From an uncultured Rickettsiales bacterium (GTDB lineage: Bacteria; Pseudomonadota; Alphaproteobacteria; Rickettsiales; RGZB01), in assembly GCA_964467255.1 (NCBI GenBank), contig CAYXPR010000007.1, positions 320 to 64,319 of the forward strand: DNA of 64,000 bases. Direction: 5' to 3'. Position numbers and translations under genes: made by a program. Positions 6,229 through 61,583 of this stretch are shown here, one piece after another. Within the stretch, counting starts at the first letter, position 1, and every line of letters begins with the position of its first letter. The notes under the pieces are model-generated. The model was not told where the DNA came from, made no database searches, and saw nothing but the letters and a program-made list of their open reading frames with translations.

Positions 6229-9200
6229 TTAGGGGCCTACTGGCTCTTTAAGCGGCGTACAACCCGTCGGATAGTCAATCGGCGGAGTCGCATTTGGGTC
6301 AGGAATCGGGTTTGGCACTGTCCACGTCGATATTAACTGGCCAAGTACGTTGTATGACGTACCACATTCATCGCGCAGACCGACACGGGGACCACAGTTG
6401 TTACCACAGCGATTATACTCAGCCTGAGCTTGTGATGTTGCTGTCGTGTGATCCGAGCCAGAGTTTCTAGCTTCAGTATACTTTGTATTCGCAAACTGCT
6501 GGCAGTTCACACACCCTGCATCAAATGTACATTCCGCTGGCGGAGAGGTTGCGGGCTCGGCGCAACAACCACCCCCTACAGAATAGTTTGGCGGATCTGA
6601 TGCTGCTCTGCAGCCAACCCATGTGCTGTTCGCCTGACTTGCACAGGTACCTTGATTGCCATAATCAATAAAGTCGCCCATGTCCCTGATACAGTTATAG
6701 TACACGTTGTTTGATTTTTCTTGGCATGTGCAGCCACCACCGCCGGAACTACCGCCGGAGCCGCCACCAGAACCACCGCCAGAGCCACCACCGGAACCGC
6801 CGCCAGAGCCACCACCGGAACCACCGCCAGAGCCACCACCGGAACCACCGCCAGAGCCACCACCAGAGCCACCACCGGAGCCGCCGCCAGAACCACCGCC
6901 AGAACCGCCACCAGAGCCACCACCCGAACCACCGCCAGAACCGCCACCCGAACCACCGCCGGAGCCGCCACCAGAACCACCGCCGGAGCCGCCACCAGAA
7001 CCACCGCCGGAGCCGCCACCGGAACCAGAACCAAAACCAGATGAGGAACCGCTACTTGGGTCTGGCGGCAAGTTCATTGCAGATGCTGCGGGAAGCAGAT
7101 TGCTGGCGGTTGTGCCAGGTATACGTTCATTACCACCACGCAATGCTTCCGGCGGCTCGCACATACCGGCTGCTGTTTTTAAGAACGTCATAACATCGTC
7201 AAAACGATACGTACCAATATTCATTGTTTCGATCGGATTGGCCGCCGTGTCTTTTGTAATTGGCTGAGGCGGTTTGCACGCGTAGGTAATATGGCCAGCA
7301 GCAGAACCTGCACCAGGGGCTGGAAGGAGGTTTAGGTAATTGCGGTAATACACACCGTCAATCTGCACGATTTTATTTTTGTGCTGGTCGGAATTATTGC
7401 TATCCAAACTTGGACGATAAACCTTTATGCGGCGCCAGTTTTTCTCCGAACAAACGCGTGCATCAGGGTCGCGGCAGTCTGGGTATGAACCGCCTTCGTG
7501 GATCGTACGTTTAGTAACCCTGTTCCACCTATCCGTATTGCCGCAAATGTCCTGGTTCTTGCCCCAGTTCGATTCACTGACTCGAACAAACTTCTCGCCT
7601 TTTTGGAATTTGCATGGCTCGTTAGGATCGTAGCCATTAAAGTCGTCCCCCGGGTCATTCGGAACAAAATTTCTTATCGTGCCGTAGGCGTAATAGCAAT
7701 CGGTTCCAGGCGGAACAGGCGATTGGTTACATGCAGGTTTTACCCATTTTTCGGGCTGCTTGGCATCCATCTTCAGGTTTTCGAACTGCGTGGTGCTCGT
7801 TGCCCTGTTGCGGGAATATGTCAGACTGTAAGGATTGCCAGGGTTATATCTTTCAAAGCCCACGCCCTCAACATATGCCATGTGTCTGCGGTAACGACCA
7901 TCCTTTGGTGAACCATCTGCGTTGCAACGTTCTTTACGCTCCTGCTCAGACATTGAGGGATTATCACACGCGTCTTGATGCGGCGTACCATCCCCATAGG
8001 TGGTGCCCGCTTGCAGAGCTTCGGTGATTGTTTCGTCCCATATCAGTAAGTCGCCTTTTTGCGCGCAGTCAAGGCCGCCAAATTTGCCCTGAATCGTGTA
8101 GTTCTGACCGGGTCTAAGCGTTCCGACTTCGTCATAATACTTACCAAATTCTATCGTGTTATTTGGTGCATAATATTCCCATAGGCGCGCTTTGACGTTA
8201 CCAGCATAGTTGATGCCGTCATTGGCAAAGTCGGGGCCCGCAAAACCACGCCACACAATCGGCCAAGGCAGCATGTCATAAATTGGCCTACCATCTCGGC
8301 CTGTTTTTACGGTGTTAAAGAACATGCCCCCACGAAGCATCGCATACCCTGTGGCGCTGCCGACCTTAAAGTTTTTGTTATAGTCGCAAATACAATTCAG
8401 GCCAAATTTGCGCATACAGCGCGCTTGGTAGAGCATCATTTCATACCAACCGCCAATCGCGCAACCACGAGGGCCAACAATGTTTTCTTTTTGACGTGCG
8501 GTGATAGCACTGTCCGAAGAAAACACGGTGCCGTCATAATTCGCACCCGTTACGGAGCGAGCAATAATCCCATAGGCTGTGTCGTAAACCTGAGCTGGCA
8601 CAGGGTTGTTAACAAATGTACCGTCCGCCAACCTTCTGGGTGTCGGCAATGGTACGTTTGGTGACATAAATGGTGCTTCCGTCCACTCATAGTGCATGTC
8701 ATAACGCTTGCCAGCTGGCGGTAATGGCAAATAGGCCAATAATTGAGGTTCCTCAAACATCCAGCGGAGATTATATTTTTTATCCAGACCTAATACCGGA
8801 CTTTCCAGTGCCAATTCATTCGGTGGAATAGTATGGCTAACGTCACGTTCGGAAATGGGGCACGCAAGGTCTCGTGCATTCCAGAAACATTTACGCCATG
8901 ACTCATAGTGCAGTTTGATATCCTTCTGTTTGCAATCCTCATATTCATCCATACCTTGGGTGCAAATATTGTCCTCGTAGCAACGGCAATAGAAGTTATA
9001 GCCTGTGCACACAAGGAAGGTTTGCGCAAAAATATAGTCAAAGCGCTCCATCCTGAAATTCAGAATGTCGATGTTTTTGTGAACGCGTTGCAGGTGGTCT
9101 TTCCACAGGTTGCAGCGTTCGTCGTAACAAAAGAATTGGGCAACGTCGCGGCCTGCCCACGGTGCACTTAAATCATTGGGGTAATCTACCGCAGGACGTG

Positions 9201-10896
9201 GGCTATATGGATGACAGATTTCGCGGATACGTTCGACTGTTTTAAGGTTGGTCGGGCCAAATGGATACCGCGCTTCACTCTCTGTTGGAGGCGTTGAGTC
9301 TTGTGGCACCCACGGCGCAAGGGTCGTTGAGTTTGCACTCTTAAAGAGCGGTACTTCAAAATCCAACGGGTTAATGTTAGACGGTGTGAATTGCGCAAAC
9401 CACGTGCCTGCATCATATGCGTCATTAAATACTTGCCCTGGATCGACAGGAACATCCGGCGGCTTATAGAAGCTTGTGGGTATCTTGGTCGCCTTTGAAG
9501 GAGTTCCCGGGCCATTATTATCCATCACCCAGTGACCATTTATGTTTTCCGGAACGTCTTCCTGGCAGAAACGGAGATAGTTATCGCAACCTTCCATATC
9601 TGGTCCACCGCAGTGCCTTGGACCGCCACTGCCGCCACCCTGTCCACAACGACTAACAGGCGAACCGTCGGTAAATTTACTGACCGTGCAACGCTGCATC
9701 TGAGGTTTACAATTTGGGTTCGCCTTGCATGGCGGAGGTTGAATCATGCGCCAATATGGCATTGGTGGATAATAGGGGAAGTAGTTCCCCTGCGCGTATT
9801 TTCGGTCATATGGTGCAGGCGTTCCATTTGCTGGGGCGCCAACACTAGGAGGATAACTACTCACGCAGCCTCTCATACCAAAATACATAGCATTGGTGGG
9901 GCGTGGGGCGTCCTCGTTTTCCGCATATTGAAACTTTAAATCTGGCGGGCGGGTTGGCGGCGGATTTAACAGCCGGTTCATGCATACTTTTTTCTCAACA
10001 TCAATAAAGCCCATTGTGTAGAAATTGATGGCATCCATCAGCTCACTCCGCATCGGCGTGCGCTGAATCAACTGACAGTCATTATAAGAAAGGTGTGTCG
10101 GCATATCCGGCATGGTGATTTGGCCGCAATCGCCGAGGAATGCCGCCTCCGATATATAAAGCTCTATACAGACTTTACGTTTATATTTTTGACCTGGTTG
10201 GCTAATAACATCTTGCAGGTGGCTTGGGTTGCCAACTGGGTCAAAGTTCTCTCTTAAGTACCAATTGGGGTTTTCCTTATCCGCCAGCGGCATATAGTGG
10301 TCGCTAGGGTTGATTAGCTTTACAATCTTACGCCCTTGCGGATCAGGAGGGCCACCGGGGGTTTCCGGCGTAGTGTCATTGTTGCGATACTCTCCGCCAG
10401 GCCTCAAAAAATATTTGCAAAATTCATCAACGTCGTCGATGTAGTCGTCCTTCGCGCAAGACTTTTTACCTGATTCCGTCAATTGCCCTGATACAAAGCT
10501 GTACCCTGCAGAACAGCTTGGATCAACGCGCAGAATCTGATCGTCCGGTATGCGCTTAAATTCGTACTCATCCTCACTTGGGTCACGCTTTTTGGTAAAA
10601 CGATATTCAGGGCGATAACAGCCCGTGATGTTTGGCCAATATTGCTCTAAGCCACCCTCGTAGAGCGGGCCTGAATATGATTTATCAAGACACTCCTGCT
10701 TGGTATCACCTTTTAAGTAAATGCATGGGTTAAGAAAATTAGAGTTTGCCGGCGGGGTGATACGATTCGGGATTTGGCACTGCGGTTCAGGGATATTTGC
10801 ATTGGCCGCATGGGGCTCTTTCGGCAACAAAACGAGCATAAGGGAAAGGGCTAATCCCCCCACTAATGCAGGTATCAGATGGCGTTTTTGTCGCAT
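6229..10896 (-). CDS. Giant secreted cysteine-rich protein of unknown family (1555 aa)
   Basis: One uninterrupted ORF. N-terminal signal peptide (MRQKRHLIPALVGGLALSLMLVLLPKEPHAANA) and no further TM segments. About 58 Cys by manual count; rich in P/Y/W/N/D/G. A 108-aa Gly/Ser tract is followed by a 167-aa C-terminal module with 14 Cys. I recognise no family. Confidence 0.85.
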   Translation of the reverse strand: MRQKRHLIPALVGGLALSLMLVLLPKEPHAANANIPEPQCQIPNRITPPANSNFLNPCIYLKGDTKQECLDKSYSGPLYEGGLEQYWPNITGCYRPEYRFTKKRDPSEDEYEFKRIPDDQILRVDPSCSAGYSFVSGQLTESGKKSCAKDDYIDDVDEFCKYFLRPGGEYRNNDTTPETPGGPPDPQGRKIVKLINPSDHYMPLADKENPNWYLRENFDPVGNPSHLQDVISQPGQKYKRKVCIELYISEAAFLGDCGQITMPDMPTHLSYNDCQLIQRTPMRSELMDAINFYTMGFIDVEKKVCMNRLLNPPPTRPPDLKFQYAENEDAPRPTNAMYFGMRGCVSSYPPSVGAPANGTPAPYDRKYAQGNYFPYYPPMPYWRMIQPPPCKANPNCKPQMQRCTVSKFTDGSPVSRCGQGGGSGGPRHCGGPDMEGCDNYLRFCQEDVPENINGHWVMDNNGPGTPSKATKIPTSFYKPPDVPVDPGQVFNDAYDAGTWFAQFTPSNINPLDFEVPLFKSANSTTLAPWVPQDSTPPTESEARYPFGPTNLKTVERIREICHPYSPRPAVDYPNDLSAPWAGRDVAQFFCYDERCNLWKDHLQRVHKNIDILNFRMERFDYIFAQTFLVCTGYNFYCRCYEDNICTQGMDEYEDCKQKDIKLHYESWRKCFWNARDLACPISERDVSHTIPPNELALESPVLGLDKKYNLRWMFEEPQLLAYLPLPPAGKRYDMHYEWTEAPFMSPNVPLPTPRRLADGTFVNNPVPAQVYDTAYGIIARSVTGANYDGTVFSSDSAITARQKENIVGPRGCAIGGWYEMMLYQARCMRKFGLNCICDYNKNFKVGSATGYAMLRGGMFFNTVKTGRDGRPIYDMLPWPIVWRGFAGPDFANDGINYAGNVKARLWEYYAPNNTIEFGKYYDEVGTLRPGQNYTIQGKFGGLDCAQKGDLLIWDETITEALQAGTTYGDGTPHQDACDNPSMSEQERKERCNADGSPKDGRYRRHMAYVEGVGFERYNPGNPYSLTYSRNRATSTTQFENLKMDAKQPEKWVKPACNQSPVPPGTDCYYAYGTIRNFVPNDPGDDFNGYDPNEPCKFQKGEKFVRVSESNWGKNQDICGNTDRWNRVTKRTIHEGGSYPDCRDPDARVCSEKNWRRIKVYRPSLDSNNSDQHKNKIVQIDGVYYRNYLNLLPAPGAGSAAGHITYACKPPQPITKDTAANPIETMNIGTYRFDDVMTFLKTAAGMCEPPEALRGGNERIPGTTASNLLPAASAMNLPPDPSSGSSSGFGSGSGGGSGGGSGGGSGGGSGGGSGGGSGGGSGGGSGGGSGGGSGGGSGGGSGGGSGGGSGGGSGGGSGGGSGGGSGGGSGGGSGGGSGGGSGGSSGGGGCTCQEKSNNVYYNCIRDMGDFIDYGNQGTCASQANSTWVGCRAASDPPNYSVGGGCCAEPATSPPAECTFDAGCVNCQQFANTKYTEARNSGSDHTTATSQAQAEYNRCGNNCGPRVGLRDECGTSYNVLGQLISTWTVPNPIPDPNATPPIDYPTGCTPLKEPVGP
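6733..7056 (-). repeat. In-frame tandem repeat encoding (GGGS)x22 within a 108-aa Gly/Ser tract
   Basis: 12-nt periodicity, core about 6758..7021. The unit count of 22 comes from ORF-length arithmetic in two frames. Units vary synonymously (Ser TCC/TCT/TCG, Gly GGT/GGC) while the peptide is perfect. Confidence 0.95.
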
Positions 10897-11083
10897 AAAA
10901 ATCGTATTACCGCATTACTTATGTGCCAATTAACATACTCATATTGAAGATATATTTCTACTTTAATATTGGCTTTTAAATTGTTTCAGATACAATATTC
11001 CACTGTATAGGGACCAAGTGTATCAAAAAATAGTTAAAATTTTACTAAATATTGTCATTTTTTAACTCCCATCTGAAGGCAAC

Positions 11084-11839
11084 ATGGCCAATAAATCTGT
11101 GGAAAATAGTAGTCCAATCAGCATCTACGAAGAAATAACCGCGCAAATTAAAACCGGTGAGTATTTCAAGGACGCGCTTGATTGGTATACCATCAAGTTT
11201 ATTCAGCCCGTTACCCACCGCTCGTTTTTTATTCTAGTCACCATTGTTTCGGTTATCACATCTATATCATCTCTGATGATACTGAACTCCATATTACCCG
11301 TGGTTCAGGTTTTACCCATCGTCATGCCGAACAAAGCAATGGCCGATTACCGTTTTGAGCTCCGCCAAATCGGACAAAAAGAAGAAAATCCAAATGTATC
11401 CGTGATAAAATACCTCAGTGGTAAGTATATCCAGATTCGCGAGGACTATAGTTTCTCACAGCTTCCTATCGACTTGGAATATATTAAGAAGTTTTCAACA
11501 GAGCAGGAATACGAGCGATATGTCGCCTTTATGAAGCCTGACAGAGTCGACAGCATGATTTTGAAGTATCGCAACCATACCAAGCGTGTAATTGAAATAA
11601 AAGAAGTGGTAGTTTTGCCACGCACAGCTGATTCGCGGCTACCGCCCAACCAACACCGGATTGCCGCTTACTTTCTGGCAAAGGAAAAGGGGCCAACCGC
11701 CAATCCTGACGCCTTATGGAAAGCAAGCCTTGATGTACGCTTCAGTGATGTAGTATTTTACAAGGACACTCAGAAGTTTGCACCAATGGATTTTGTGGTG
11801 ACCCGTTACGAAGCGCAGCAAGTGGAAGCAAAAAAATGA
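11084..11839 (+). CDS. virB8: VirB8-like (TrbF/DotI-like) bitopic type IV secretion component
   Basis: 251 aa with a short cytoplasmic N-terminus, one TM (FFILVTIVSVITSISSLMIL), then a periplasmic domain. VirB8-like landmarks: DWY..K, YIQIREDYSF, and C-terminal FAPMDFVVTRYEA resembling NPLGFxVxxY. Visibly AT-richer than its neighbours. Confidence 0.6.
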   Translation: MANKSVENSSPISIYEEITAQIKTGEYFKDALDWYTIKFIQPVTHRSFFILVTIVSVITSISSLMILNSILPVVQVLPIVMPNKAMADYRFELRQIGQKEENPNVSVIKYLSGKYIQIREDYSFSQLPIDLEYIKKFSTEQEYERYVAFMKPDRVDSMILKYRNHTKRVIEIKEVVVLPRTADSRLPPNQHRIAAYFLAKEKGPTANPDALWKASLDVRFSDVVFYKDTQKFAPMDFVVTRYEAQQVEAKK

Positions 11840-12630
11840 AAAAACACATATTTACGTATGCTTTAATGGCAAGCCTTGCAGTGGGCGCCTATGCTCCACA
11901 GGTACTGGCGCTTCAGGAAAACAAGCCTATTGCAGTAGATAAGCGTATTCGTACTTTCGTGTATGACCCAAATGAGGTGTACAAATTCGTTGGGCATTAT
12001 CGTTATCAATCAAGCCTCGAATTTTCACCGGATGAGGAAATTGCCACCGTTTCGATGGGCGATTCCCTTGCTTGGCAAGTAACCCCTCAGGGAAACCGCA
12101 TGTTTCTTAAGCCAATTGAGCCAGATGCCACCACGAATATGACGGTTGTAACCAGTAAGCGTATCTACCATTTTGAACTTTACGGCGAAGAAGCGGAGGG
12201 CATACGCGATGATGAGATGGTGTTTGCCGCCCGATTTCATTATCCCGATTCAGGCGACGCCGACCTCAAGCGGTTCTCGATAAATAAGGATATGCCTGAC
12301 ATTGAGGAAGAAGCCGAAAAATATAACTTCAATTACTCGGTTTCCGGCTCGGAGTTTATTACGCCGCTTAAAGTGTTTGACGACGGTGAATTCACCTATT
12401 TCGAGTTTAAGGACAAGAACGCTGAAATTCCAGCATTTTTTGTGGTTCACTCCGATAAAAAAGAAGCTGTTATCAACTACCGTATGACCGGAAATTATGT
12501 GGTGGTAGAGCGTGTTTCCAGCGTATTTACGCTGCGCCACGGCCCCGACATCGCCTGCGTGTTTAACGAGACGATGCCGCTACCGAAGGAAAAGCCAAAG
12601 CCGAAACGCAAGTTCCTGAACTGGTTCTAG
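11836..12630 (+). CDS. virB9: VirB9-like (TrbG/CagX family) type IV secretion outer-membrane core component
   Basis: 264 aa with a signal peptide. The N-domain pattern is DKRIRTFVYDPNEVY...GDSLAWQV...NRMFLKP...TNMTVVTSKRIYHFEL. The C-domain pattern is PLKVFDDGEFTYFEF...PAFFVV...VINYRMTGNYVVVERV. ATGA overlap with the VirB8-like gene. Confidence 0.75.
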   Translation: MKKHIFTYALMASLAVGAYAPQVLALQENKPIAVDKRIRTFVYDPNEVYKFVGHYRYQSSLEFSPDEEIATVSMGDSLAWQVTPQGNRMFLKPIEPDATTNMTVVTSKRIYHFELYGEEAEGIRDDEMVFAARFHYPDSGDADLKRFSINKDMPDIEEEAEKYNFNYSVSGSEFITPLKVFDDGEFTYFEFKDKNAEIPAFFVVHSDKKEAVINYRMTGNYVVVERVSSVFTLRHGPDIACVFNETMPLPKEKPKPKRKFLNWF

Positions 12631-27135: not shown

Positions 27136-27858
27136 CTATTTTTTTAGAAACCATGATTTCGGCTGGAAACGGTATTTCACTAAACACCAGAGCGCTTCAA
27201 GCCCGTGCCACAGGCGGATTTTTTTTCCCTCCTCTGTGGTGCGGCTGTTATAGCGGATAGGTAATTCAATAAAGCGTGCGCCCATGCGGCTAAGCTTAAC
27301 GGTAATTTCAGGGCAAAAACCAAAGCCTTCTTCTCGCAGCTCTACTTTCTGCAAAATTTCGGTGCGCAGCATTTTGTAACATGTTGCTTCGTCATGCAGC
27401 GGCCAGCCGGTTAGTACCCTTGCGACAAAAGTAAGTGCTTTATTACCAAAGCGGTGAATAAAACCATTAAAGCTACTCCCCTCGAAGAAACGGTTGCCAT
27501 ACACAGCATCCGCCTCGTCTTTCAGCAACGGCGCCAGTAATGCAGCATAATCTTTGGGGTCGTATTCAAGATCCGCATCCTGAATGATTACAGCCTTGCC
27601 TTTTACTTGACCAAGCCCAGAACGTATGGCAGCGCCCTTCCCGCGGTTTGCGGGATGAGCCACTACTTCCACCCGAGCATCACACGCCTTCCATGCCAGC
27701 GCTTTTTCCTTTGTTGTATCGGCGGAACCATCATCCACCACTATGAGCTGGATTACTTCCGGCTGAGCAAGCACCTGCCCGATAATCGTATCAATATACG
27801 ATGCCTCGTTATAGGCAGGCATTACCACCGACAGGCATGCTGATTTATTGGGGTTCAT
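27136..27858 (-). CDS. Family-2 glycosyltransferase (polyprenyl-phosphate sugar synthase-like, ArnC/GtrB/DPM1-like)
   Basis: 240 aa with SVVMPAYNE...VVDDGSADTT...QDADLEYDP (DxD) GT-A signature. Confidence 0.85.
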   Translation of the reverse strand: MNPNKSACLSVVMPAYNEASYIDTIIGQVLAQPEVIQLIVVDDGSADTTKEKALAWKACDARVEVVAHPANRGKGAAIRSGLGQVKGKAVIIQDADLEYDPKDYAALLAPLLKDEADAVYGNRFFEGSSFNGFIHRFGNKALTFVARVLTGWPLHDEATCYKMLRTEILQKVELREEGFGFCPEITVKLSRMGARFIELPIRYNSRTTEEGKKIRLWHGLEALWCLVKYRFQPKSWFLKK

Positions 27859-29734
27859 CTGAATCCGTATCTGGTTTATCGGCCCATCTTACAGCAAGAA
27901 GCTTATAAGGTGAAACCTCATCTGCTAACCCCTCTGGCTTGCCAAGTGCCAGAAAAATAACCTGTATGCCATACTGGTAATTTTCATTCATGGGCGCTTT
28001 AAACCGTATGCGCCTGCCACCCGGAATGTCTTCCTCGCTGATGCGCTCAAGCATTTCGCGCTGCACTTTGGCCCGCACCCAATGCCAATCGCTGTAAGGA
28101 ACTTTTACATTATTGTTTATGGCTAGGTCTACTTCCACAAACTCAATGTTTTCTGCAAATAATACAACCAGTGGCTTGGTTAAACCATTCTGACGGTTCC
28201 AGCCCACACCGTTAAAGCGAATATTTTGCATCGGCGCAAGGAATGGGTCTCCACGACGTGTGCTTTTTTGATCGCTTGTATATTCTGTTGGCAAAGTGAG
28301 AGAGGCCTGTTTTTTGCGATGCTGCATGGGATCCACTATCGTGTCGGGCCATGTTTCCCAACCGCGGCCAATAGTGCCGATACACCACACAACAAGAATT
28401 AACCCTCCGGCATAACGCAACCATTCATTTTTCAGTTTGCTGCCTGCAAAAATGATAAGCCCCGCAATCGTGGCGGCAAACACAGGAGCAAAGTCAGCAT
28501 AATACCGCGACGAAACGATAGGGTAACGTAAGTAAAAAATGACGAAGAGCGTGAATGGAATAACGCCCCACAGTGTTATGATTCCGGGAATGGTTAGTTC
28601 TAATGTTTTATTTTGGCAGAATGTCTTATAGCTTTTTTGTAACTCGCTAAAGCCCGCAGAAATACAAGCCAGGAATAACATAAGGTAAAAAATGCTATAC
28701 GTATGAAAATACAGTTCGCGCCAGCGAATCGTTTCTGACTGAAGTGGCATAAAATTGGGCGAAAAAAATTCAAAATCCGGCGTTTCCGGCTTTGTGACAA
28801 GGAACATCCCGCCGAATAATTCTTTCGCCGCACTTAGTAGCGGCTCATGTTGATAAGGATAATCAAAACGTGTGGAATACATGGCGCCGTAAGAGGGGTG
28901 TAAATTAATGGCGTGACCAAACTCAAGGGGGTGATCGAACCGCACCCAGTTTGTCCACAGCACGAGCATTATGCCAATTAGAGCAGGCATGGCTGCAACC
29001 ATAGATCGTGCTGCGGTTTTAAGCATAGGCTGATTTTTTGTTTTCTGGCCTAACTGCGTGGCGCCACCAACAAGAACAACAGCAATGGCATAAAATAAAA
29101 ACGTGGGACGAATCAAAACACCAAGCCCCGCCAGAAGACACAACGCACTATAAAACCGGCGTGACGGTTTGCGGTACAACGCGATTAAGCCAGAGAGCAA
29201 ACCCGTTGCATATATATATTGGTAGATAACGGCTTCTTCATAAATATCGAGCCGCGTGCGCAAGAGCGTCACGAATATGGGCAAACATAAAATACTAAGC
29301 GCTGCCAGAAGCCATACCCAGAAATTTTCCTCGCCCTTTTTGAGCCGTCCCTCCACGATGAATATCATTCGGGAGTGGCCTAGAAACACACGCAAAACAA
29401 CATAGGCCCAGAGCATAAGGGCAGCCAGCAACGGAATGCGGTCAGGCAACACATCAAGGCCAAACGCTTTAGCCAAAATGGTAAAGGGCAAGCGCCAAAG
29501 CGGTATGCCAAGCCCCCAGACCTGCTGAACGCCACCACCGCTCCATGTCATATCCATATCAAGATATGCCGGATCTTCTGAAATTAAAAACCGCCCATCT
29601 AAAAATGCATCCACCTGGTGACGGTAATGCAAATTCTGCGATTCTAAGCTCTCAAAAATTGGGCCAGTAATCCACCCGAGCAATAGAATGAAAGCAATGC
29701 TGCTTATGATTATGATTTTGTTCGAAATTTGCAT
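27845..29734 (-). CDS. Polytopic membrane protein, putative GT-C-fold glycosyltransferase (ArnT/PMT-like architecture)
   Basis: 629 aa with about 12 predicted TM helices. The first periplasmic loop is acidic (EDPAYLDMD) and there is a about 165-aa soluble C-terminal domain. 14-nt overlap with the GT2 gene. The assignment rests on architecture only. Confidence 0.45.
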   Translation of the reverse strand: MQISNKIIIISSIAFILLLGWITGPIFESLESQNLHYRHQVDAFLDGRFLISEDPAYLDMDMTWSGGGVQQVWGLGIPLWRLPFTILAKAFGLDVLPDRIPLLAALMLWAYVVLRVFLGHSRMIFIVEGRLKKGEENFWVWLLAALSILCLPIFVTLLRTRLDIYEEAVIYQYIYATGLLSGLIALYRKPSRRFYSALCLLAGLGVLIRPTFLFYAIAVVLVGGATQLGQKTKNQPMLKTAARSMVAAMPALIGIMLVLWTNWVRFDHPLEFGHAINLHPSYGAMYSTRFDYPYQHEPLLSAAKELFGGMFLVTKPETPDFEFFSPNFMPLQSETIRWRELYFHTYSIFYLMLFLACISAGFSELQKSYKTFCQNKTLELTIPGIITLWGVIPFTLFVIFYLRYPIVSSRYYADFAPVFAATIAGLIIFAGSKLKNEWLRYAGGLILVVWCIGTIGRGWETWPDTIVDPMQHRKKQASLTLPTEYTSDQKSTRRGDPFLAPMQNIRFNGVGWNRQNGLTKPLVVLFAENIEFVEVDLAINNNVKVPYSDWHWVRAKVQREMLERISEEDIPGGRRIRFKAPMNENYQYGIQVIFLALGKPEGLADEVSPYKLLAVRWADKPDTDSDEPQ

Positions 29735-29823
29735 AGTACGGAAAGATAGGTAAAGACGGCGCGAGAGTAAAGTTTAAATCGTTTTGCTGCCTTAGAAATC
29801 AACAGCTTGTGCATAATAACTCC

Positions 29824-29838
29824 TTAATCCTTTGTTAA
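29824..29838. promoter_or_regulatory. Perfect CtrA-type box TTAA-N7-TTAA
   Basis: TTAATCCTTTGTTAA, 23 nt upstream of ATG 29861, in a 126-bp AT-rich intergenic region. Confidence 0.5.
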
Positions 29839-29860
29839 TTAATATAAAGTATATTGTTCG

Positions 29861-31117
29861 ATGATGATAATACCGAAAAAAGCAGACCTTGATACCTATC
29901 TGACGCTGGATGAGCACGTTCAGCAAGGCAAGCTTATGCCCCCAGAAATCATGATGATTTTTGCCGCTGCGCCGGGCATGCCCAATTCAATCAATTGTCA
30001 TGACTGTGGAGTGGAACAGGCCAAAGCCAATTGGCGGGATTATCTGGAAAACCACACCGATAAGCATACGCGTTTAAAACCCAAAAGATTTTCTGAGCTT
30101 TATGAGCTTGATAGCCAAATCCGCGGAGGCCAAGCCGCCGTAGACTGGATGGTGGAAGACTTCCACACGATGGCAGAAATTAACCCCACCGTGGCTAACT
30201 CCTTTGCCAAAGGCGGGCAGCGTATTCTCTTCACTGCTGACAGCAGCATCATGGGGAGCGTTGGGATATGCTCGCACTATTTTGTTATAAAAGGACTGAT
30301 GTACGATATTTCCTATCCTATAGAACTGGCGGATTATAGACCCTATATTGCTTTGCCATTTACCGACAATGTGCTGGTGCATGAGATGGGGCATGGCTTT
30401 GATGCATATCTGCGCCACACCAATGCGCCTGTGTTTGAAACCCTCGTAACACTGGACAGGAACAGCCCCAAAACCTCTAGCAGCGACAAAAACAAAGAGC
30501 GCAGCCTTGCTGACCAATTGTGGATGATTATGGTCACGCGCCATAACAACACATACACTGATAACAGCCGCTCAAGCCTTTCAGAACAATTCGCGATTTG
30601 CAGTGAATATTTTTTCGGCAATAAGGAGGCACAGCCGGAACGCTCCCCAATGCTAGCCGCCTATTTTAATGATGTGGTGCTGCTAAGCCTTGAGATTATT
30701 GCATCTGATTTGCCAAAGGCAGCAAAGCTCGAAGGGCTACGTATGCTGAAAGAGACAATCCACGAGCCGCCTGAAAAATACTTCGGAGCAGATGGCGTTG
30801 ATATTTTTGCTAAAATGGCTGAGCGGCAAAGGTACCGCGCTGAAATGCCTTTAGGCCGTTCCAACGAACCTTTTTTTGAAGCGGATGATACATTGCTCGG
30901 AAAATTAAATGCCGCCGCGCATGCGACGCGCCATGATGACACGCCACATGTCCGCGCACTCAAAGACCGCGAATCTGCGAAAGCCTACGATGCGGTAGAA
31001 AAAACATTGGTCGAGGGCTTTGCCGCTGTTCGGCGCGATGTGATGGAAAAAATCGGACTCGAACTAACCCGTGAGCAGGAATCCTGCCACCTCAAATTAA
31101 GTGCGATTAAGCGTTAG
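29861..31117 (+). CDS. HExxH zincin metallopeptidase-like protein (MtfA/M90-like core), no signal peptide
   Basis: 418 aa. VLVHEMGHGFD is followed about 60 aa later by SEQFAICSEYFFG, resembling the HExxH...EFFAxxSExFF pattern of MtfA-type zincins. The C-terminal about 150 aa are helical and charged. Confidence 0.55.
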   Translation: MMIIPKKADLDTYLTLDEHVQQGKLMPPEIMMIFAAAPGMPNSINCHDCGVEQAKANWRDYLENHTDKHTRLKPKRFSELYELDSQIRGGQAAVDWMVEDFHTMAEINPTVANSFAKGGQRILFTADSSIMGSVGICSHYFVIKGLMYDISYPIELADYRPYIALPFTDNVLVHEMGHGFDAYLRHTNAPVFETLVTLDRNSPKTSSSDKNKERSLADQLWMIMVTRHNNTYTDNSRSSLSEQFAICSEYFFGNKEAQPERSPMLAAYFNDVVLLSLEIIASDLPKAAKLEGLRMLKETIHEPPEKYFGADGVDIFAKMAERQRYRAEMPLGRSNEPFFEADDTLLGKLNAAAHATRHDDTPHVRALKDRESAKAYDAVEKTLVEGFAAVRRDVMEKIGLELTREQESCHLKLSAIKR

Positions 31118-31541
31118 TATCTGACTTGCGGTCTTGCAGGAATTTGTTGATGCCCACTTCGTCGAGCATCAATCCTTCGCGGCGGTCAAGTTCGGCTTGC
31201 TCTTCGCGCTCTTTACGTTCTTTCATGATTTCGTATTTTTTCTGTTCGGCGAATTCGGCGCGGATGCGCTCTTCCTGAAAGCGGATTTTCTGCTCTGCAT
31301 CCGTAAGGATTCCTTTTAACCTTTCGCGGGTTTGGAGAGAGCGCTTGAGGTAGTTGGTGTAGGTAAACTGCCCTTCTTCTGACTCGCTTGCCAGCTTTTG
31401 TTCCGCCTGCATTTCTTTTTCAAGATTGGTAAGATGTTTGACCGTTTGATCGCGCGCATCGAGCAAAATCGCCAGCTCTTTACGCATATCATCCAAGCGA
31501 CGCTTGTGGATTTTTATGAGTGTGCTAAGCGACTTTGTCAT
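31107..31541 (-). CDS. fliJ: Flagellar export chaperone FliJ
   Basis: 144-aa coiled-coil protein overlapping the fliI stop by 4 nt. The call rests on position and size. Confidence 0.7.
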
Positions 31542-32893
31542 TTCTTAGGCTGCTGCACAGGTTGTGCGGGCTTCATGTTTAAAATCTTGCCAAGCTGCTG
31601 GTAGCCGAGCTCCAGATTCGAGGCTTCCTCCGGCTGCTGGCGCAGGAAATCTTCCAACTTGTCGTGGTAATAAATGGCAGCATCCACTTCTGGATCGCTG
31701 CCCTTACGGTAGGCGCCGAGGCGAATCAGCTCTGACATGTCATTATAAGTAGCCATCAGCTGGCGTGCTTTTACGACCATTTGGTTTTCTTCCGGCGTGT
31801 TACAGGCTGGCATAGTACGCGACACGCTACGCAATATATTCACCGCCGGAAAGCGCCCGCGCTCTGCAATCAGCCTGTCGAGCACGATGTGACCATCTAG
31901 AATACCGCGCACAGCGTCTGAAATCGGTTCGTTATGGTCGTCACCTTCCACTAGCACGCTGAACAGGCCGGTGATAGAGCCTTTGCCAGTGCCCGGCCCA
32001 GCGCGCTCTAGCAACTTTGGTAGTTCTACAAATACGGTAGGAGTATAACCCTTTGTTGCAGGAGGCTCGCCTGCGGAAAGACCAATCTCGCGCTGCGCCA
32101 TAGCAAAGCGCGTGACACTATCCATCAGGCAGAGTACTTCCTGCCCTTGGTCACGGAAAAATTCTGCAATCGCCATCGTGAGATAGGCAGCCTGCTTGCG
32201 CACCAGCGCGGATTCGTTCGAGGTTGCCACCACCACCACCGCTTTTTCGAGGCCTTCTGCACCCAGATATTCATGAATGAATTCGTGCACTTCGCGGCCA
32301 CGTTCACCAATCAACCCGATGACCTTTACGTCAGCCGTGCAATATTTCGTGAGCATGGAAATCAGCATGGATTTACCCACGCCGGAGCCCGCAAAAATGC
32401 CCATACGTTGCCCACGACAGCAGGTGAGGAAAGTATTCACGGCGCGCACGCCTAAATCCATCTTGCCGCGCACCGGCAAACGTTTATGCGCCGGAGGCGG
32501 GTTGGCGCGGAACGGGTAGGCCACCTCGCCCATCTGGAGCGCGCCTTTTTCGTCAATCGGTTCGGCAAATGCGTTAAGGATTCGGCCCTTCCACGCCGCA
32601 TGCGGAAATGCTACCGCCTCGTTTTTCTCAATAATCACGCGGCAACCGCTGCCAATGCCTTCTACATCGGTAAACGGCATCATCATGGCAATGCCTGCGC
32701 GCAAGCCCACCACTTCCACGCCGACTTCGCGGCCATTTGTGGTGACAATTCGGCAGCGCGAACCAATGCTGACCATTCCTTCCAACCCCGCGCACTCAAT
32801 TAACAGACCTTGTACGGCAGTCACTTTGCCGTAGACTTCGCGGTCGTTAATTTCTTTAAGTTTGCGGATACTGATGTCGATTGGATCTGCCAC
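31538..32893 (-). CDS. fliI: Flagellum-specific ATPase FliI
   Basis: 451 aa with Walker A GSGVGKS, Walker B VLCLMDS and F1-beta-like fold. GTG start. Confidence 0.93.
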
Positions 32894-60566: not shown

Positions 60567-60643
60567 CTGACACTGCCCTACTACCCCCCAAACCAAATTC
60601 ATACGGGGGAAACGGGCTCTACACCTTTGAAAGGGGTGTTACG

Positions 60644-60943
60644 ATGGCGAAGACTCTGGCCGACCTCCAGAACGACGTGCGCAAGAACGTGGCGACCGGC
60701 ATCCAGACGGTGATCGACGAGATCGGTGACATGAAGGCGAAGGACTTCCACGCCGTGGAAGGCCTCGCCGGCTACCTCAACCGACTGGTCGCGCTCGTCG
60801 AAGTCCTCAACAAGGGCAACGACGTGCACATCCGCCTGCAGGATGAAGGCAAGTACGACGATCGCTCGAACAAGACCGTCTACTACACGTACGCCACGGT
60901 CGAGATCCCCGCGAAGGCGAAGGACAACACGGCGACGAGCTGA
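60644..60943 (+). CDS. Orphan 99-aa protein with extreme GC3, unknown family
   Basis: ATG 60644 has GAAAGGGG upstream. 91 of 99 third codon positions are G/C by manual count, against about half in neighbouring genes and in the 30 in-frame codons upstream. Predicted helical N-terminal half, then beta-like DVHIRLQ / TVYYTYATVEIP. Confidence 0.7.
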   Translation: MAKTLADLQNDVRKNVATGIQTVIDEIGDMKAKDFHAVEGLAGYLNRLVALVEVLNKGNDVHIRLQDEGKYDDRSNKTVYYTYATVEIPAKAKDNTATS

Positions 60944-61017
60944 GTAGGAACCGGACCTTGAGTCCAAACCGCGCTGTGCCGTATGCACAGAACCGATTAC
61001 GCTAACGCGTGATTGGG

Positions 61018-61042
61018 GACCCACCTAACAAGGTGGGTCTTT
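61018..61042 (+). terminator. Hairpin terminator after the GC-rich ORF
   Basis: GACCCACC-TAACAA-GGTGGGTC then TTT (short U tract). An additional hairpin, CTGTGC-CGTAT-GCACAG, lies at 60974..60990. Confidence 0.6.
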
Positions 61043-61053
61043 CGCCATGACTG

Positions 61054-61500
61054 CTATTCTGTTTTGGTGCAATCACCGAGGCGCTTACCGATGATGCTGG
61101 TCACCGATTTTTCTGTGCCGGAAATGGCCACTATCTCAACCTTGTAAGAATCAGCACTATAGGTGGCTTCCATTTTGCTAGACGTGCCGTCCTTGCAGGA
61201 AGACTCCATCATCGACTTTCCGTCATCCGCATTAAACTTTATTTTGCAGTCGCCGTCATTTGACTCGAAACTGCCCTTTTTCCCGTAATTAGGCGCATAC
61301 ACACCCAGCTGATCACTGGCCTCTGCCGCACCCATGCAGTTTGTTGTTTTAAACTCAGTGGGCGCGCCACCAGAGCCTTCAGAGCGCATCACCATTTCCC
61401 ATTCACCGGCGCGCAGCGCTCCATCTTTATCCGCTGCAGCACAAAAAGGAAACAGCACCATAGCAGAAGCTATGAGCAACCATTTTTGAAACATATTCAC
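61054..61500 (-). CDS. Secreted small protein, DUF3617-like
   Basis: 148 aa with signal peptide MNMFQKWLLIASAMVLFPFCAA. The GEWEM motif and four spaced Cys resemble the DUF3617 pattern. This is recall only. Confidence 0.45.
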   Translation of the reverse strand: MNMFQKWLLIASAMVLFPFCAAADKDGALRAGEWEMVMRSEGSGGAPTEFKTTNCMGAAEASDQLGVYAPNYGKKGSFESNDGDCKIKFNADDGKSMMESSCKDGTSSKMEATYSADSYKVEIVAISGTEKSVTSIIGKRLGDCTKTE

Positions 61501-61583
61501 CTCTCTCGGGCGAGGACGTTATCAAAAATATTTCTAAGAAAAAACTACAGAAATTTATAGCTATTTAGAACCCTAAAATTCGC

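What the first reader, a model, noticed from the sequence alone, without database searches (positions are those of the whole stretch)
10897..12630. Orphan VirB8-like/VirB9-like pair with no other type IV secretion genes in 64 kb
Two translationally coupled genes (ATGA overlap) encode a bitopic VirB8-like protein and a signal-peptide VirB9-like protein. The VirB9-like protein carries both canonical domains. No virB2-7, virB10, virB11, virB4 or virD4 follows. The next gene is ilvB. The pair is visibly AT-richer than its flanks and faces the giant Cys-rich exoprotein gene across a shared AT-rich control region. Scattered, duplicated virB8/virB9 copies are a hallmark of the Rickettsiales rvh-type T4SS, so this could be a satellite of such a system. 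Alternatively, a minimal periplasm-spanning B8-B9 scaffold may have been co-opted for export, anchoring or display of the neighbouring giant protein.
Basis: partly seen in the sequence, partly recalled or inferred. Interest (0 to 1): 0.65.

Follow-up and report, generated by a model that had tools for sequence, protein, structure and literature searches.

The report
rvhB8-II/rvhB9-I islet of Rickettsiales T4SS
The two genes are the well-known stand-alone "rvhB8-II / rvhB9-I" operon of the scattered type IV secretion system that marks the order Rickettsiales, here in an uncultured free-living-type relative, so the isolated position is normal and not a new kind of machine.

Summary
Two overlapping genes (ATGA) encode a one-helix VirB8-like protein (11084-11839) and a full-length VirB9 with a signal peptide (11836-12630). 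No other type IV secretion gene lies in the 64 kb.

The pair matches the rvhB8-II/rvhB9-I operon of the Rickettsiales vir homolog (rvh) system:
- All 14 genome loci found with the VirB8-like family carry Rickettsiales-type record titles, except one 2-kb contig in a Janthinobacterium bin.
- In a complete Rickettsia chromosome the orthologous pair lies back to back with rvhB8-I, a truncated rvhB9-II, rvhB10, rvhB11 and rvhD4.
- The best solved-structure match is R. typhi RvhB8-II (4O3V).
- The NPXG motif is lost (APMD), as described for RvhB8-II.
- VirB9 keeps a conserved C-terminal domain, as RvhB9-I does.

About 50 related loci show the same isolated pair among housekeeping genes, so "orphan" is the normal layout. 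I could not inventory the rest of the system in this genome.

The giant-protein co-option idea fails in general, because most lineages have the pair without the giant gene. However, eight basal lineages keep giant gene, rvhB8-II and rvhB9-I together in three different flanking contexts. That trio is unexplained.

Verdict: new member of a known kind, low to moderate interest.

The parts
11084..11839 (+). rvhB8-II: the divergent VirB8 paralogue (251 aa). It has a cytoplasmic N-terminus with the SGEYFKDAxDWY motif, one transmembrane helix at about residues 43-80, and a periplasmic VirB8-fold domain that lacks NPXG.
   Evidence: - Pfam VirB8 scores 29.8 bits against a 23.2-bit cut-off.
- The best match among solved structures is 4O3V, R. 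typhi RvhB8-II, at E 2.8e-5 (identity of 4O3V from PMC4676284).
- phmmer against Rickettsia gives 5e-16 for RvhB8-II and 4.5e-5 for RvhB8-I.
- A neighbour-joining tree places it with RvhB8-II.
- The NPXG position reads APMD.
- Hydropathy shows one hydrophobic segment.
11836..12630 (+). rvhB9-I: canonical full-length VirB9 (264 aa) with a signal peptide and both the N- and C-terminal domains. It is the presumed outer-membrane core-complex subunit.
   Evidence: - Pfam CagX scores 1.9e-63 over the whole profile.
- TIGR02781 VirB9 equivalog scores 248 bits against a 217.7-bit cut-off.
- phmmer gives 1e-75 to Rickettsia RvhB9-I and 4e-29 to the truncated RvhB9-II.
- The C-terminal domain is as conserved as the N-terminal one: 53% and 53% to Rickettsia RvhB9-I, and 51% to the Xanthomonas VirB9 C-terminal domain.
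- dN/dS against the L004 orthologue is 0.04.
11836..11839 (+). ATGA start/stop overlap. It suggests translational coupling of the two genes.
   Evidence: Read directly from the sequence. In orthologous loci the two genes are also contiguous or overlapping.
10897..11083 (.). 187-base AT-rich (27% G+C) divergent intergenic region between the giant gene and rvhB8-II. It holds a conserved block at about 11017-11050 (..ATAGTTAAAATTTTACTAAAT).
   Evidence: Composition. The conserved block comes from an alignment with the intergenic regions of L004, L006, L007 and L011. Promoter-like matches are no more frequent than in shuffled sequence, so a regulatory role is only inferred.
6229..10896 (-). Neighbouring giant secreted Cys-rich protein (1555 aa, 58 Cys). 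It has a GGGS run of about 95 aa and a conserved core of about 200 aa of unknown fold within residues 800-1135. It is not part of the rvh system as currently known. It is kept next to the pair in eight basal Rickettsiales lineages.
   Evidence: - No Pfam or NCBIfam family matches.
- 98 representative homologues share the core.
- A profile search of all fetched loci finds the family only next to the pair, in the window, L004, L006/L007, L011, L016, L061 and L062, and in L064.
- The AlphaFold model of the core has pLDDT 74.7 and no Foldseek match in the PDB.

Best explanation
The pair is the rvhB8-II/rvhB9-I operon. It is one of the small, scattered gene islets of the Rickettsiales vir homolog (rvh) P-type type IV secretion system. 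The host is an uncultured, metabolically rich "basal" member of the Rickettsiales (about 51% G+C, with ilv, trp and flagellar genes).

**Shown here**
- Both proteins are orthologous to the Rickettsia RvhB8-II and RvhB9-I proteins.
- The operon structure is conserved across about 50 Rickettsiales-type loci.
- Purifying selection acts on rvhB9-I.

**Inferred from established knowledge of VirB-type systems**
- RvhB9-I is exported by Sec. Its C-terminal domain joins VirB7 and VirB10 in the outer-membrane core complex, and its N-terminal domain faces the periplasm.
- RvhB8-II is an inner-membrane, periplasm-facing VirB8 paralogue. Because it lacks NPXG it should form an atypical dimer, and it probably occupies or modulates part of the inner-membrane assembly next to the canonical RvhB8-I.
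- The other parts are expected elsewhere in the genome: rvhB3-B4-I-B6 copies, the rvhB8-I-rvhB9-II-B10-B11-D4 islet, and rvhB4-II.

In free-living-type basal Rickettsiales the published proposal for the system's role is killing of other bacteria or defence against protists, not host manipulation (PMC9352585).
For: **Taxonomy of relatives**
- A genome scan with the VirB8-like family returned 14 loci. Their record titles are Rickettsiales, Rickettsiaceae or Rickettsia, apart from one 2-kb contig in a Janthinobacterium bin.
- The closest relative (B8 75%, B9 96% identical, same synteny) is titled "Rickettsiales bacterium", from Lake Mendota.

**Arrangement in Rickettsia**
- In the Rickettsia endosymbiont of Nabis limbatus, the orthologous pair lies divergently next to five genes. 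These are a canonical VirB8 (Pfam 122 bits), a 161-aa VirB9 with only the N-terminal domain, VirB10, VirB11 and VirD4.
- That is the arrangement published for R. typhi (PMC4676284).

**Protein-level match**
- The window's B8 scores 5e-16 to RvhB8-II against 4.5e-5 to RvhB8-I.
- It clusters with RvhB8-II in a neighbour-joining tree.
- Its best solved-structure match is 4O3V, RvhB8-II.
- It has APMD in place of NPXG.
- B9 matches RvhB9-I at 1e-75 and keeps a conserved C-terminal domain.

**Rates of change**
- B8 evolves much faster than B9: 75% against 96% identity to L004. The literature reports the same for Rvh-II against Rvh-I proteins.
- dN/dS is 0.04 for B9.

**Isolated pairs elsewhere**
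- The same isolated pair sits among housekeeping genes in 36 further metagenome loci and several genome loci.
- In one Rickettsiaceae bin it is directly followed by three VirB6-type genes.

**Literature**
- Basal Rickettsiales (G+C 40-52%) carry rvh with duplicated B4, B8 and B9 (PMC9352585; PMC11077975; PMC10847448).
Against: - I could not read the rest of this genome. The presence of rvhB4, rvhB6, rvhB8-I, rvhB10, rvhB11 and rvhD4 in it is inferred, not shown.
- The window's own record carries no name. Its assignment to Rickettsiales rests on a relative's record title and on which organisms carry the gene family.
- The trees are neighbour-joining trees on very divergent sequences, without support values.
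- The function of RvhB8-II is unknown even in Rickettsia.
Confidence: 0.85

Rival explanations
1. The pair is an autonomous two-protein periplasm-spanning module. It has been recruited to export, anchor or display the giant Cys-rich protein encoded next to it, and works independently of any type IV secretion system.
For: - No other T4SS gene lies in the 64 kb.
- The giant-family gene is kept divergently next to the pair in eight lineages and three different flanking contexts.
- The giant gene and rvhB8-II form one block of raised silent-site divergence between two close relatives.
- The intergenic region holds a conserved block.
Against: - The pair is orthologous to genes that belong to a complete rvh system in Rickettsia.
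- Most lineages have the pair without any giant-family gene within 10 kb. One of them, L013, has the pair directly after murU and upstream of ilvB.
- The giant protein has its own Sec-type signal peptide.
- VirB8 and VirB9 alone provide no ATPase and no outer-membrane channel protein (VirB10). This last point is established knowledge, not tested here.
Confidence: 0.06
2. The pair is a leftover of a type IV secretion system that this lineage has otherwise lost. It is retained by chance or for an unrelated role.
For: - No other T4SS gene lies in the 64 kb.
- A few Rickettsiales are reported to have lost or partly lost the system (PMC10847448).
Against: - Both reading frames are intact.
- dN/dS is 0.04 for rvhB9-I.
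- The VirB9 C-terminal domain, which contacts VirB7 and VirB10, is as conserved as the N-terminal one.
- The same pair is conserved across dozens of lineages.
Confidence: 0.05
3. The pair is a fragment of a conjugative plasmid or integrative element, carrying a VirB/Trb-type mating-pair system inserted next to ilvB.
For: - The pair has lower G+C than its flanks.
- VirB9 is 42-43% identical to plasmid VirB9 proteins.
Against: - No relaxase, integrase, tRNA site or other transfer gene lies nearby.
- The position between murU and ilvB is stable across lineages down to 50-57% VirB9 identity.
- The closest relatives of both proteins are chromosomal Rickettsiales genes, not plasmid genes.
Confidence: 0.02

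Closest known systems
rvhB8-II/rvhB9-I operon of Rickettsia typhi (RT0278 = RvhB8-II, PDB 4O3V) and Neorickettsia; part of the Rickettsiales vir homolog (rvh) T4SS (Gillespie et al., mBio 2015, PMC4676284)
   Same: - A two-gene unit pairing the divergent, NPXG-less VirB8 paralogue with the canonical full-length VirB9.
- It is separated from the islet that holds rvhB10, rvhB11 and rvhD4.
- The VirB8 paralogue evolves fast and the VirB9 slowly.
- Best sequence and solved-structure matches point to these proteins.
   Different: - The host is a 51% G+C, biosynthetically complete, flagellated environmental lineage, not an AT-rich obligate intracellular one.
- In Rickettsia the pair lies back to back with the rvhB8-I...rvhD4 islet. 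Here it lies alone between a giant gene and ilvB.
- Identity to the Rickettsia proteins is only 22% for B8 and 45% for B9.
rvh T4SS of the basal Rickettsiales families Mitibacteraceae and Athabascaceae (Schön et al. 2022, PMC9352585; Castelli et al. 2024, PMC10847448)
   Same: - Free-living-type genomes with higher G+C, flagella and full amino-acid biosynthesis.
- A scattered rvh system with duplicated components.
- The window's gene content fits this.
   Different: - The family of this organism was not determined.
- Neither the parts of those papers that I read nor my term searches of their supplements mentioned a giant Cys-rich neighbour of the pair.
Archetypal VirB8/VirB9 of P-type T4SS operons (Agrobacterium virB; Xanthomonas pXAC64)
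   Same: - VirB9 is a clear member of the family: 42% identical to pXAC64 VirB9, with both domains.
- VirB8 keeps the bitopic architecture and fold family.
   Different: - In archetypal systems virB8 and virB9 sit inside a contiguous virB1-11 operon. Here they stand alone.
- The VirB8 here is only 13% identical to pXAC64 VirB8 and lacks NPXG.

Membership tests
VirB8 family (Pfam PF04335) | Sequence match above the curated family threshold | tested here: met
   29.8 bits against a 23.2-bit cut-off, E 6.7e-7, covering profile positions 5-211 of 213. Weak but above threshold. Orthologues in other loci also hit PF04335.
VirB8 family (Pfam PF04335) | Bitopic topology: short cytoplasmic N-terminus, one transmembrane helix, periplasmic domain | tested here: met
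   One hydrophobic stretch at about residues 43-80, with a Kyte-Doolittle maximum of 2.45 at residues 49-67. The orientation is inferred, not measured.
VirB8 family (Pfam PF04335) | Periplasmic domain related to solved VirB8 structures | tested here: met
   phmmer against PDB sequences gives 4O3V (RvhB8-II) at E 2.8e-5 over residues 101-245, and 4LSO (VirB8) at E 0.009. No structure was predicted for this protein.
RvhB8-II (divergent VirB8 paralogue of the rvh system) | Loss of the NPXG dimer-interface motif (Asn and Gly replaced; PMC4676284) | tested here: met
   In the alignment, Rickettsia RvhB8-I has NPVG. The window has APMD and Rickettsia RvhB8-II has APFN at the same place.
RvhB8-II (divergent VirB8 paralogue of the rvh system) | Closer to RvhB8-II than to RvhB8-I or to archetypal VirB8 | tested here: met
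   phmmer gives 5e-16 against 4.5e-5. The neighbour-joining tree agrees. Identity is 22% to RvhB8-II, 16% to RvhB8-I and 13% to Xanthomonas VirB8. No bootstrap support was computed.
RvhB8-II (divergent VirB8 paralogue of the rvh system) | Forms an operon with rvhB9-I, apart from rvhB10, rvhB11 and rvhD4 | tested here: met
   ATGA overlap with a full-length VirB9. The same pairing is seen in Rickettsia and in nearly all related loci.
VirB9 / RvhB9-I | Match to the VirB9 equivalog model above its cut-off, with both domains present | tested here: met
   TIGR02781 scores 248.4 bits against 217.7, covering positions 2-247 of 248. CagX covers 2-198 of 198. RvhB9-II of Rickettsia is 161 aa with the N-terminal domain only.
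VirB9 / RvhB9-I | Sec signal peptide for periplasmic or outer-membrane location | tested here: inconclusive
   The N-terminus MKKHIFTYALMASLAVGAYAPQVLA looks like a signal peptide, with a hydropathy maximum of 1.44 at residues 8-26. No dedicated signal-peptide predictor was available.
Rickettsiales vir homolog (rvh) T4SS | Duplicated VirB4, VirB8 and VirB9 (paralogues I and II) in one genome | not testable with these tools
   Only 64 kb of this genome can be read, and only the B8-II and B9-I members are seen. The RvhD4 protein search returned only close Rickettsiaceae relatives at 77% identity or more.
Rickettsiales vir homolog (rvh) T4SS | Several VirB6 copies, no VirB5, and presence of VirB3, VirB10, VirB11 and VirD4 | not testable with these tools
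   None of these genes is in the window. In related bins, VirB6 copies (L015) and the B10-B11-D4 islet (L020) lie next to the orthologous pair.
Rickettsiales vir homolog (rvh) T4SS | Genes scattered in small islets among housekeeping genes | tested here: met
   The pair is alone between a giant gene and ilvB, with no T4SS gene in 64 kb. The same holds in dozens of related loci.
Rickettsiales vir homolog (rvh) T4SS | Host belongs to the order Rickettsiales | tested here: inconclusive
   The syntenic relative (96% VirB9 identity) is deposited as "Rickettsiales bacterium". The gene family was found only in Rickettsiales-titled records, apart from one 2-kb contig in a Janthinobacterium bin. No marker-gene phylogeny was made, and the window's own proteins are unnamed in the sources.

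The most novel reading that the evidence does not exclude
In a set of basal Rickettsiales, the giant secreted Cys-rich protein family is a previously unrecognised partner of the rvh system. It could be a surface or adhesin-like accessory, or a cargo, that works with RvhB8-II and RvhB9-I. The family has a core of about 200 aa of unknown fold and about 98 representative homologues, some up to 3600 aa.

**Points in favour**
- Eight lineages keep the trio of giant gene (-), rvhB8-II (+) and rvhB9-I (+). Their VirB9 identity to the window is 56-96% and their G+C is 39-51%.
- The trio appears in three different flanking contexts: murU...ilvB, LOG-like gene...unknown, and unknown...hisI.
- The family is otherwise rare.
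- The giant gene and rvhB8-II diverge together as one block between close relatives.

**Point against**
- Most Rickettsiales carry the pair without this gene nearby.
Probability: 0.2. Interest if true: 0.6.

Novelty: new member of a known kind. Interest (0 to 1): 0.3.

Why it matters
The main result matters chiefly as a correction. An apparently orphan VirB8/VirB9 pair in an alphaproteobacterial bin should first be read as the rvhB8-II/rvhB9-I islet of a scattered system, not as a new minimal machine. The pair may also serve as a marker for Rickettsiales-type contigs in metagenomes.

The role of the duplicated Rvh-II proteins is still unknown (PMC4676284). Cultivable or at least free-living-type lineages that keep them could be easier to test than obligate intracellular pathogens.

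The conserved linkage to a giant secreted protein of unknown fold is the one part that could lead somewhere new. It gives a concrete candidate partner for RvhB8-II.

Tried and rejected
**Inventory of the rest of the rvh system in this genome: not achieved.**
- A protein search with Rickettsia RvhD4 returned only hits at 77% identity or more, so it never reached basal lineages.
- Contig look-ups return at most 10 kb on each side of a gene, and only for permitted proteins.
- Supplements of PMC11077975 and PMC10847448 did not list any of the bins I had.
- The Lake Mendota bin table was cut before the Proteobacteria.

**Idea that the giant protein's core is a CHAP or NlpC/P60-type peptidase: not supported.**
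- The idea came from reading motifs such as GDLLIWDE and RRHMAYVEGV.
- No Pfam family matched.
- A profile search of PDB sequences found nothing.
- The candidate Cys is not conserved in the family alignment.
- The AlphaFold model (pLDDT 74.7) had no Foldseek match in the PDB better than E 0.3.
- A first model of the window's own 370-aa core was too poor to use (pLDDT 50.5).

**Other points.**
- PDB sequence hits to the giant protein come only from its GGGS run.
- Promoter and terminator scans around the pair found no more sites than in shuffled sequence.
Full report
**Observation**

The window holds two co-oriented ORFs, at 11084-11839 (251 aa) and 11836-12630 (264 aa). They overlap by ATGA.

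The first ORF matches Pfam VirB8 weakly but above the curated threshold: 29.8 bits against 23.2. It has a single hydrophobic segment at about residues 43-80.

The second ORF matches Pfam CagX/VirB9 over the full profile at 1.9e-63. It also passes the NCBIfam VirB9 equivalog cut-off, 248 bits against 217.7, and it begins with a signal-peptide-like segment.

I tested the claim that no other type IV secretion gene lies in the 64 kb in two ways.
- I ran phmmer with VirB1-B6 and VirB8-B11 of Xanthomonas plasmid pXAC64 (annotated locus L024), Rickettsia RvhB10, RvhB11 and RvhD4, and three RvhB6 proteins. Across the six-frame translation of the window, only these two genes were hit.
- Pfam scans of the remaining ORFs gave housekeeping and flagellar genes: ahcY, tsaE, murU, ilvBNC, trpABF, rpsA, aroA, fliI/fliJ, lptFGD, leuCD and others.

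The pair is lower in G+C (43% and 47%) than the window (51%).

**What the pair is**

A word-indexed search of 5.8 billion proteins found only seven relatives of the VirB8-like protein. The VirB9 protein had 1249 relatives, and the best 120 were all 52% identical or more. The VirB8-like protein therefore evolves fast and the VirB9 slowly.

A scan of one genome per species with an alignment of the VirB8-like family returned 14 loci. Their record titles are Rickettsiales, Rickettsiaceae or Rickettsia, except one 2-kb contig in a "Janthinobacterium" bin. The closest relative is deposited as "Rickettsiales bacterium" from Lake Mendota. It is 75% identical in VirB8 and 96% in VirB9, and it has identical synteny over 20 kb.

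The decisive locus is L020, from the complete chromosome of the Rickettsia endosymbiont of Nabis limbatus. The best match to the window's pair there is a VirB8-like gene followed by a full-length VirB9. That pair lies back to back with five other genes:
- a canonical VirB8 (Pfam 122 bits);
- a 161-aa VirB9 with only the N-terminal domain;
- VirB10;
- VirB11;
- VirD4.

Gillespie et al. describe exactly this arrangement for R. typhi. In their account rvhB8-I and rvhB9-II sit in the islet with rvhB10, rvhB11 and rvhD4. rvhB8-II and rvhB9-I form a separate operon in Rickettsia and Neorickettsia (PMC4676284).

The protein-level evidence agrees.
- The window's VirB8-like protein scores 5e-16 to RvhB8-II against 4.5e-5 to RvhB8-I.
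- It groups with RvhB8-II in a neighbour-joining tree.
- Its best match among all solved structures is 4O3V, which that paper identifies as R. typhi RvhB8-II.
- At the NPXG dimer-interface motif, RvhB8-I reads NPVG. The window reads APMD and Rickettsia RvhB8-II reads APFN. Loss of Asn and Gly is the published hallmark of RvhB8-II.
- The VirB9 matches RvhB9-I at 1e-75. Its C-terminal domain is as conserved as its N-terminal one, unlike RvhB9-II.

The pair is therefore the rvhB8-II/rvhB9-I operon.

**Is "orphan" unusual?**

No. Orthologous pairs sit alone among unrelated housekeeping genes in many contexts:
- ddl-B8-B9-ubiB;
- murU-B8-B9...ilvB;
- HlyD-family gene-B8-B9-ilvBNC;
- fumC-B8-B9-eptA;
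- icd-B8-B9.

A metagenome scan added 36 loci with 25-48% G+C. Wherever the contig extends, the VirB8-like gene is followed by VirB9, and no other T4SS gene lies within 10 kb. The one exception is L030, where the VirB8-like gene stands without VirB9. In a Rickettsiaceae bin the pair is followed directly by three VirB6-type genes.

Published surveys report that the basal, metabolically rich families of Rickettsiales carry the scattered rvh system with duplicated B4, B8 and B9 (PMC9352585; PMC11077975; PMC10847448). Those families have 40-52% G+C and flagella. The window's gene content and composition fit such an organism.

**How it most likely works**

Shown here: orthology, operon structure, and purifying selection on rvhB9-I (dN/dS 0.04 against the L004 orthologue).

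Inferred from established knowledge of VirB systems:
- RvhB9-I is exported by Sec and builds the outer-membrane core complex with VirB7 and VirB10 through its C-terminal domain. The equal conservation of that domain argues that those partners exist in this genome.
- RvhB8-II is an inner-membrane paralogue with an atypical dimer interface. Its role is unknown even in Rickettsia.
- The rest of the system is expected elsewhere in the genome. I could not verify this, and it is the main gap.

**The giant neighbour**

The co-option idea fails as a general explanation. Most lineages, including Rickettsia, have the pair without a giant-family gene. L013 has the pair directly after murU and upstream of ilvB, with nothing inserted.

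The neighbour is not random, however.
- A profile of the giant protein's conserved core finds the family in my loci only next to the pair. It is present in the window, L004, L006/L007, L011, L061, L062 and the distant L016 (E 5e-43), and also in L064.
- The flanks differ between these loci. Most have murU and ilvB, L011 has an aminotransferase and a LOG-like gene, and L016 has hisI. The trio has therefore stayed together through rearrangements.
- The family is rare, with 98 representatives among 1.84 billion.
- It has no Pfam match, no PDB match and no Foldseek match.
- Between the window and L004, nucleotide identity drops from 85-97% in the flanks to 67-80% across the giant gene, the intergenic region and rvhB8-II. 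It then recovers within rvhB9-I.
- Differences at four-fold degenerate sites show the same pattern: 0.59 in the giant gene, 0.55 in rvhB8-II, a fall from 0.46 to 0.11 along rvhB9-I, and 0.25 in ilvB. This looks like an older allele block bounded by recombination.

I treat a functional link between the giant family and the rvh pair as a minority possibility of about 0.2.

**Verdict**

The finding is real. It is explained by a known system and is a new member of a known kind. The second reading is not supported in the form stated. Interest is low to moderate, at 0.3, and rests mainly on the conserved trio.

Noticed in passing
window 6229-10896 (-): The giant secreted protein (1555 aa, 58 Cys, 144 Pro) belongs to a rare uncharacterised family.
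- 98 representative homologues of 200-3600 aa share a core of about 200 aa, with motifs such as W.ELKLYQAR, WPL.WRGY, GLDNA..GD and GK.PD.CGNTD.W.
- No Pfam or PDB match was found.
- The AlphaFold model of the core has pLDDT 74.7 and no Foldseek match in the PDB.
- The protein also has a GGGS run of about 95 aa, followed by a Cys-rich C-terminal domain.
   Followed up: partly
window 6297-11812 compared with L004: The giant gene, the intergenic region and rvhB8-II form one block of raised divergence between two close relatives.
- Nucleotide identity is 67-80% in the block against 85-97% in the flanks.
- Differences at four-fold degenerate sites are 0.55-0.59, against 0.11-0.41 in the flanking genes.
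- Divergence decays along rvhB9-I.

This looks like an old allele block kept or exchanged by recombination.
   Followed up: partly
window 11017-11050: A sequence block (..ATAGTTAAAATTTTACTAAAT) in the divergent intergenic region is conserved in L004, L006 and L007, and partly in L011. The rest of the region is not conserved. It may be a shared promoter or operator. I did not test whether it also occurs upstream of pairs that lack the giant gene.
   Followed up: partly
L015 10019-20101: In a "Rickettsiaceae bacterium" bin the rvhB8-II/rvhB9-I pair is followed directly by three large VirB6/TrbL-type genes (673, 1052 and 1041 aa). This arrangement differs from that of Rickettsia.
   Followed up: partly
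L030 8600-9313: This is the one locus where the RvhB8-II-type gene has no VirB9 next to it. A response regulator and RNase D follow instead.
   Followed up: partly
L014 (JBPBQH010000039.1, 2037 bases); protein P0151: A bin deposited as Janthinobacterium lividum holds a 2-kb contig with a Rickettsiaceae-like rvhB8-II/rvhB9-I pair. An RvhD4 protein 83% identical to that of Rickettsia is also attributed to a J. lividum bin. This is probably contamination of that bin by a Rickettsiaceae genome.
   Followed up: no
window 27845-31117: Two large ORFs without any Pfam match (629 aa on the - strand, 418 aa on the + strand) face each other. They lie next to the flagellar export genes fliJ and fliI (31107-32893).
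   Followed up: no
window 60599-63974: A large ORF of at least 796 aa runs to within 26 bases of the window end. Its only matches are weak SdrD_B and CarboxypepD_reg-like hits. Two unknown ORFs of 141 and 148 aa follow it. It may be another large surface protein.
   Followed up: no
L061 8308-10884: In this relative, two small genes of the 23S_rRNA_IVP family (129 aa each) flank ilvB just downstream of the pair. They are absent from the window.
   Followed up: no
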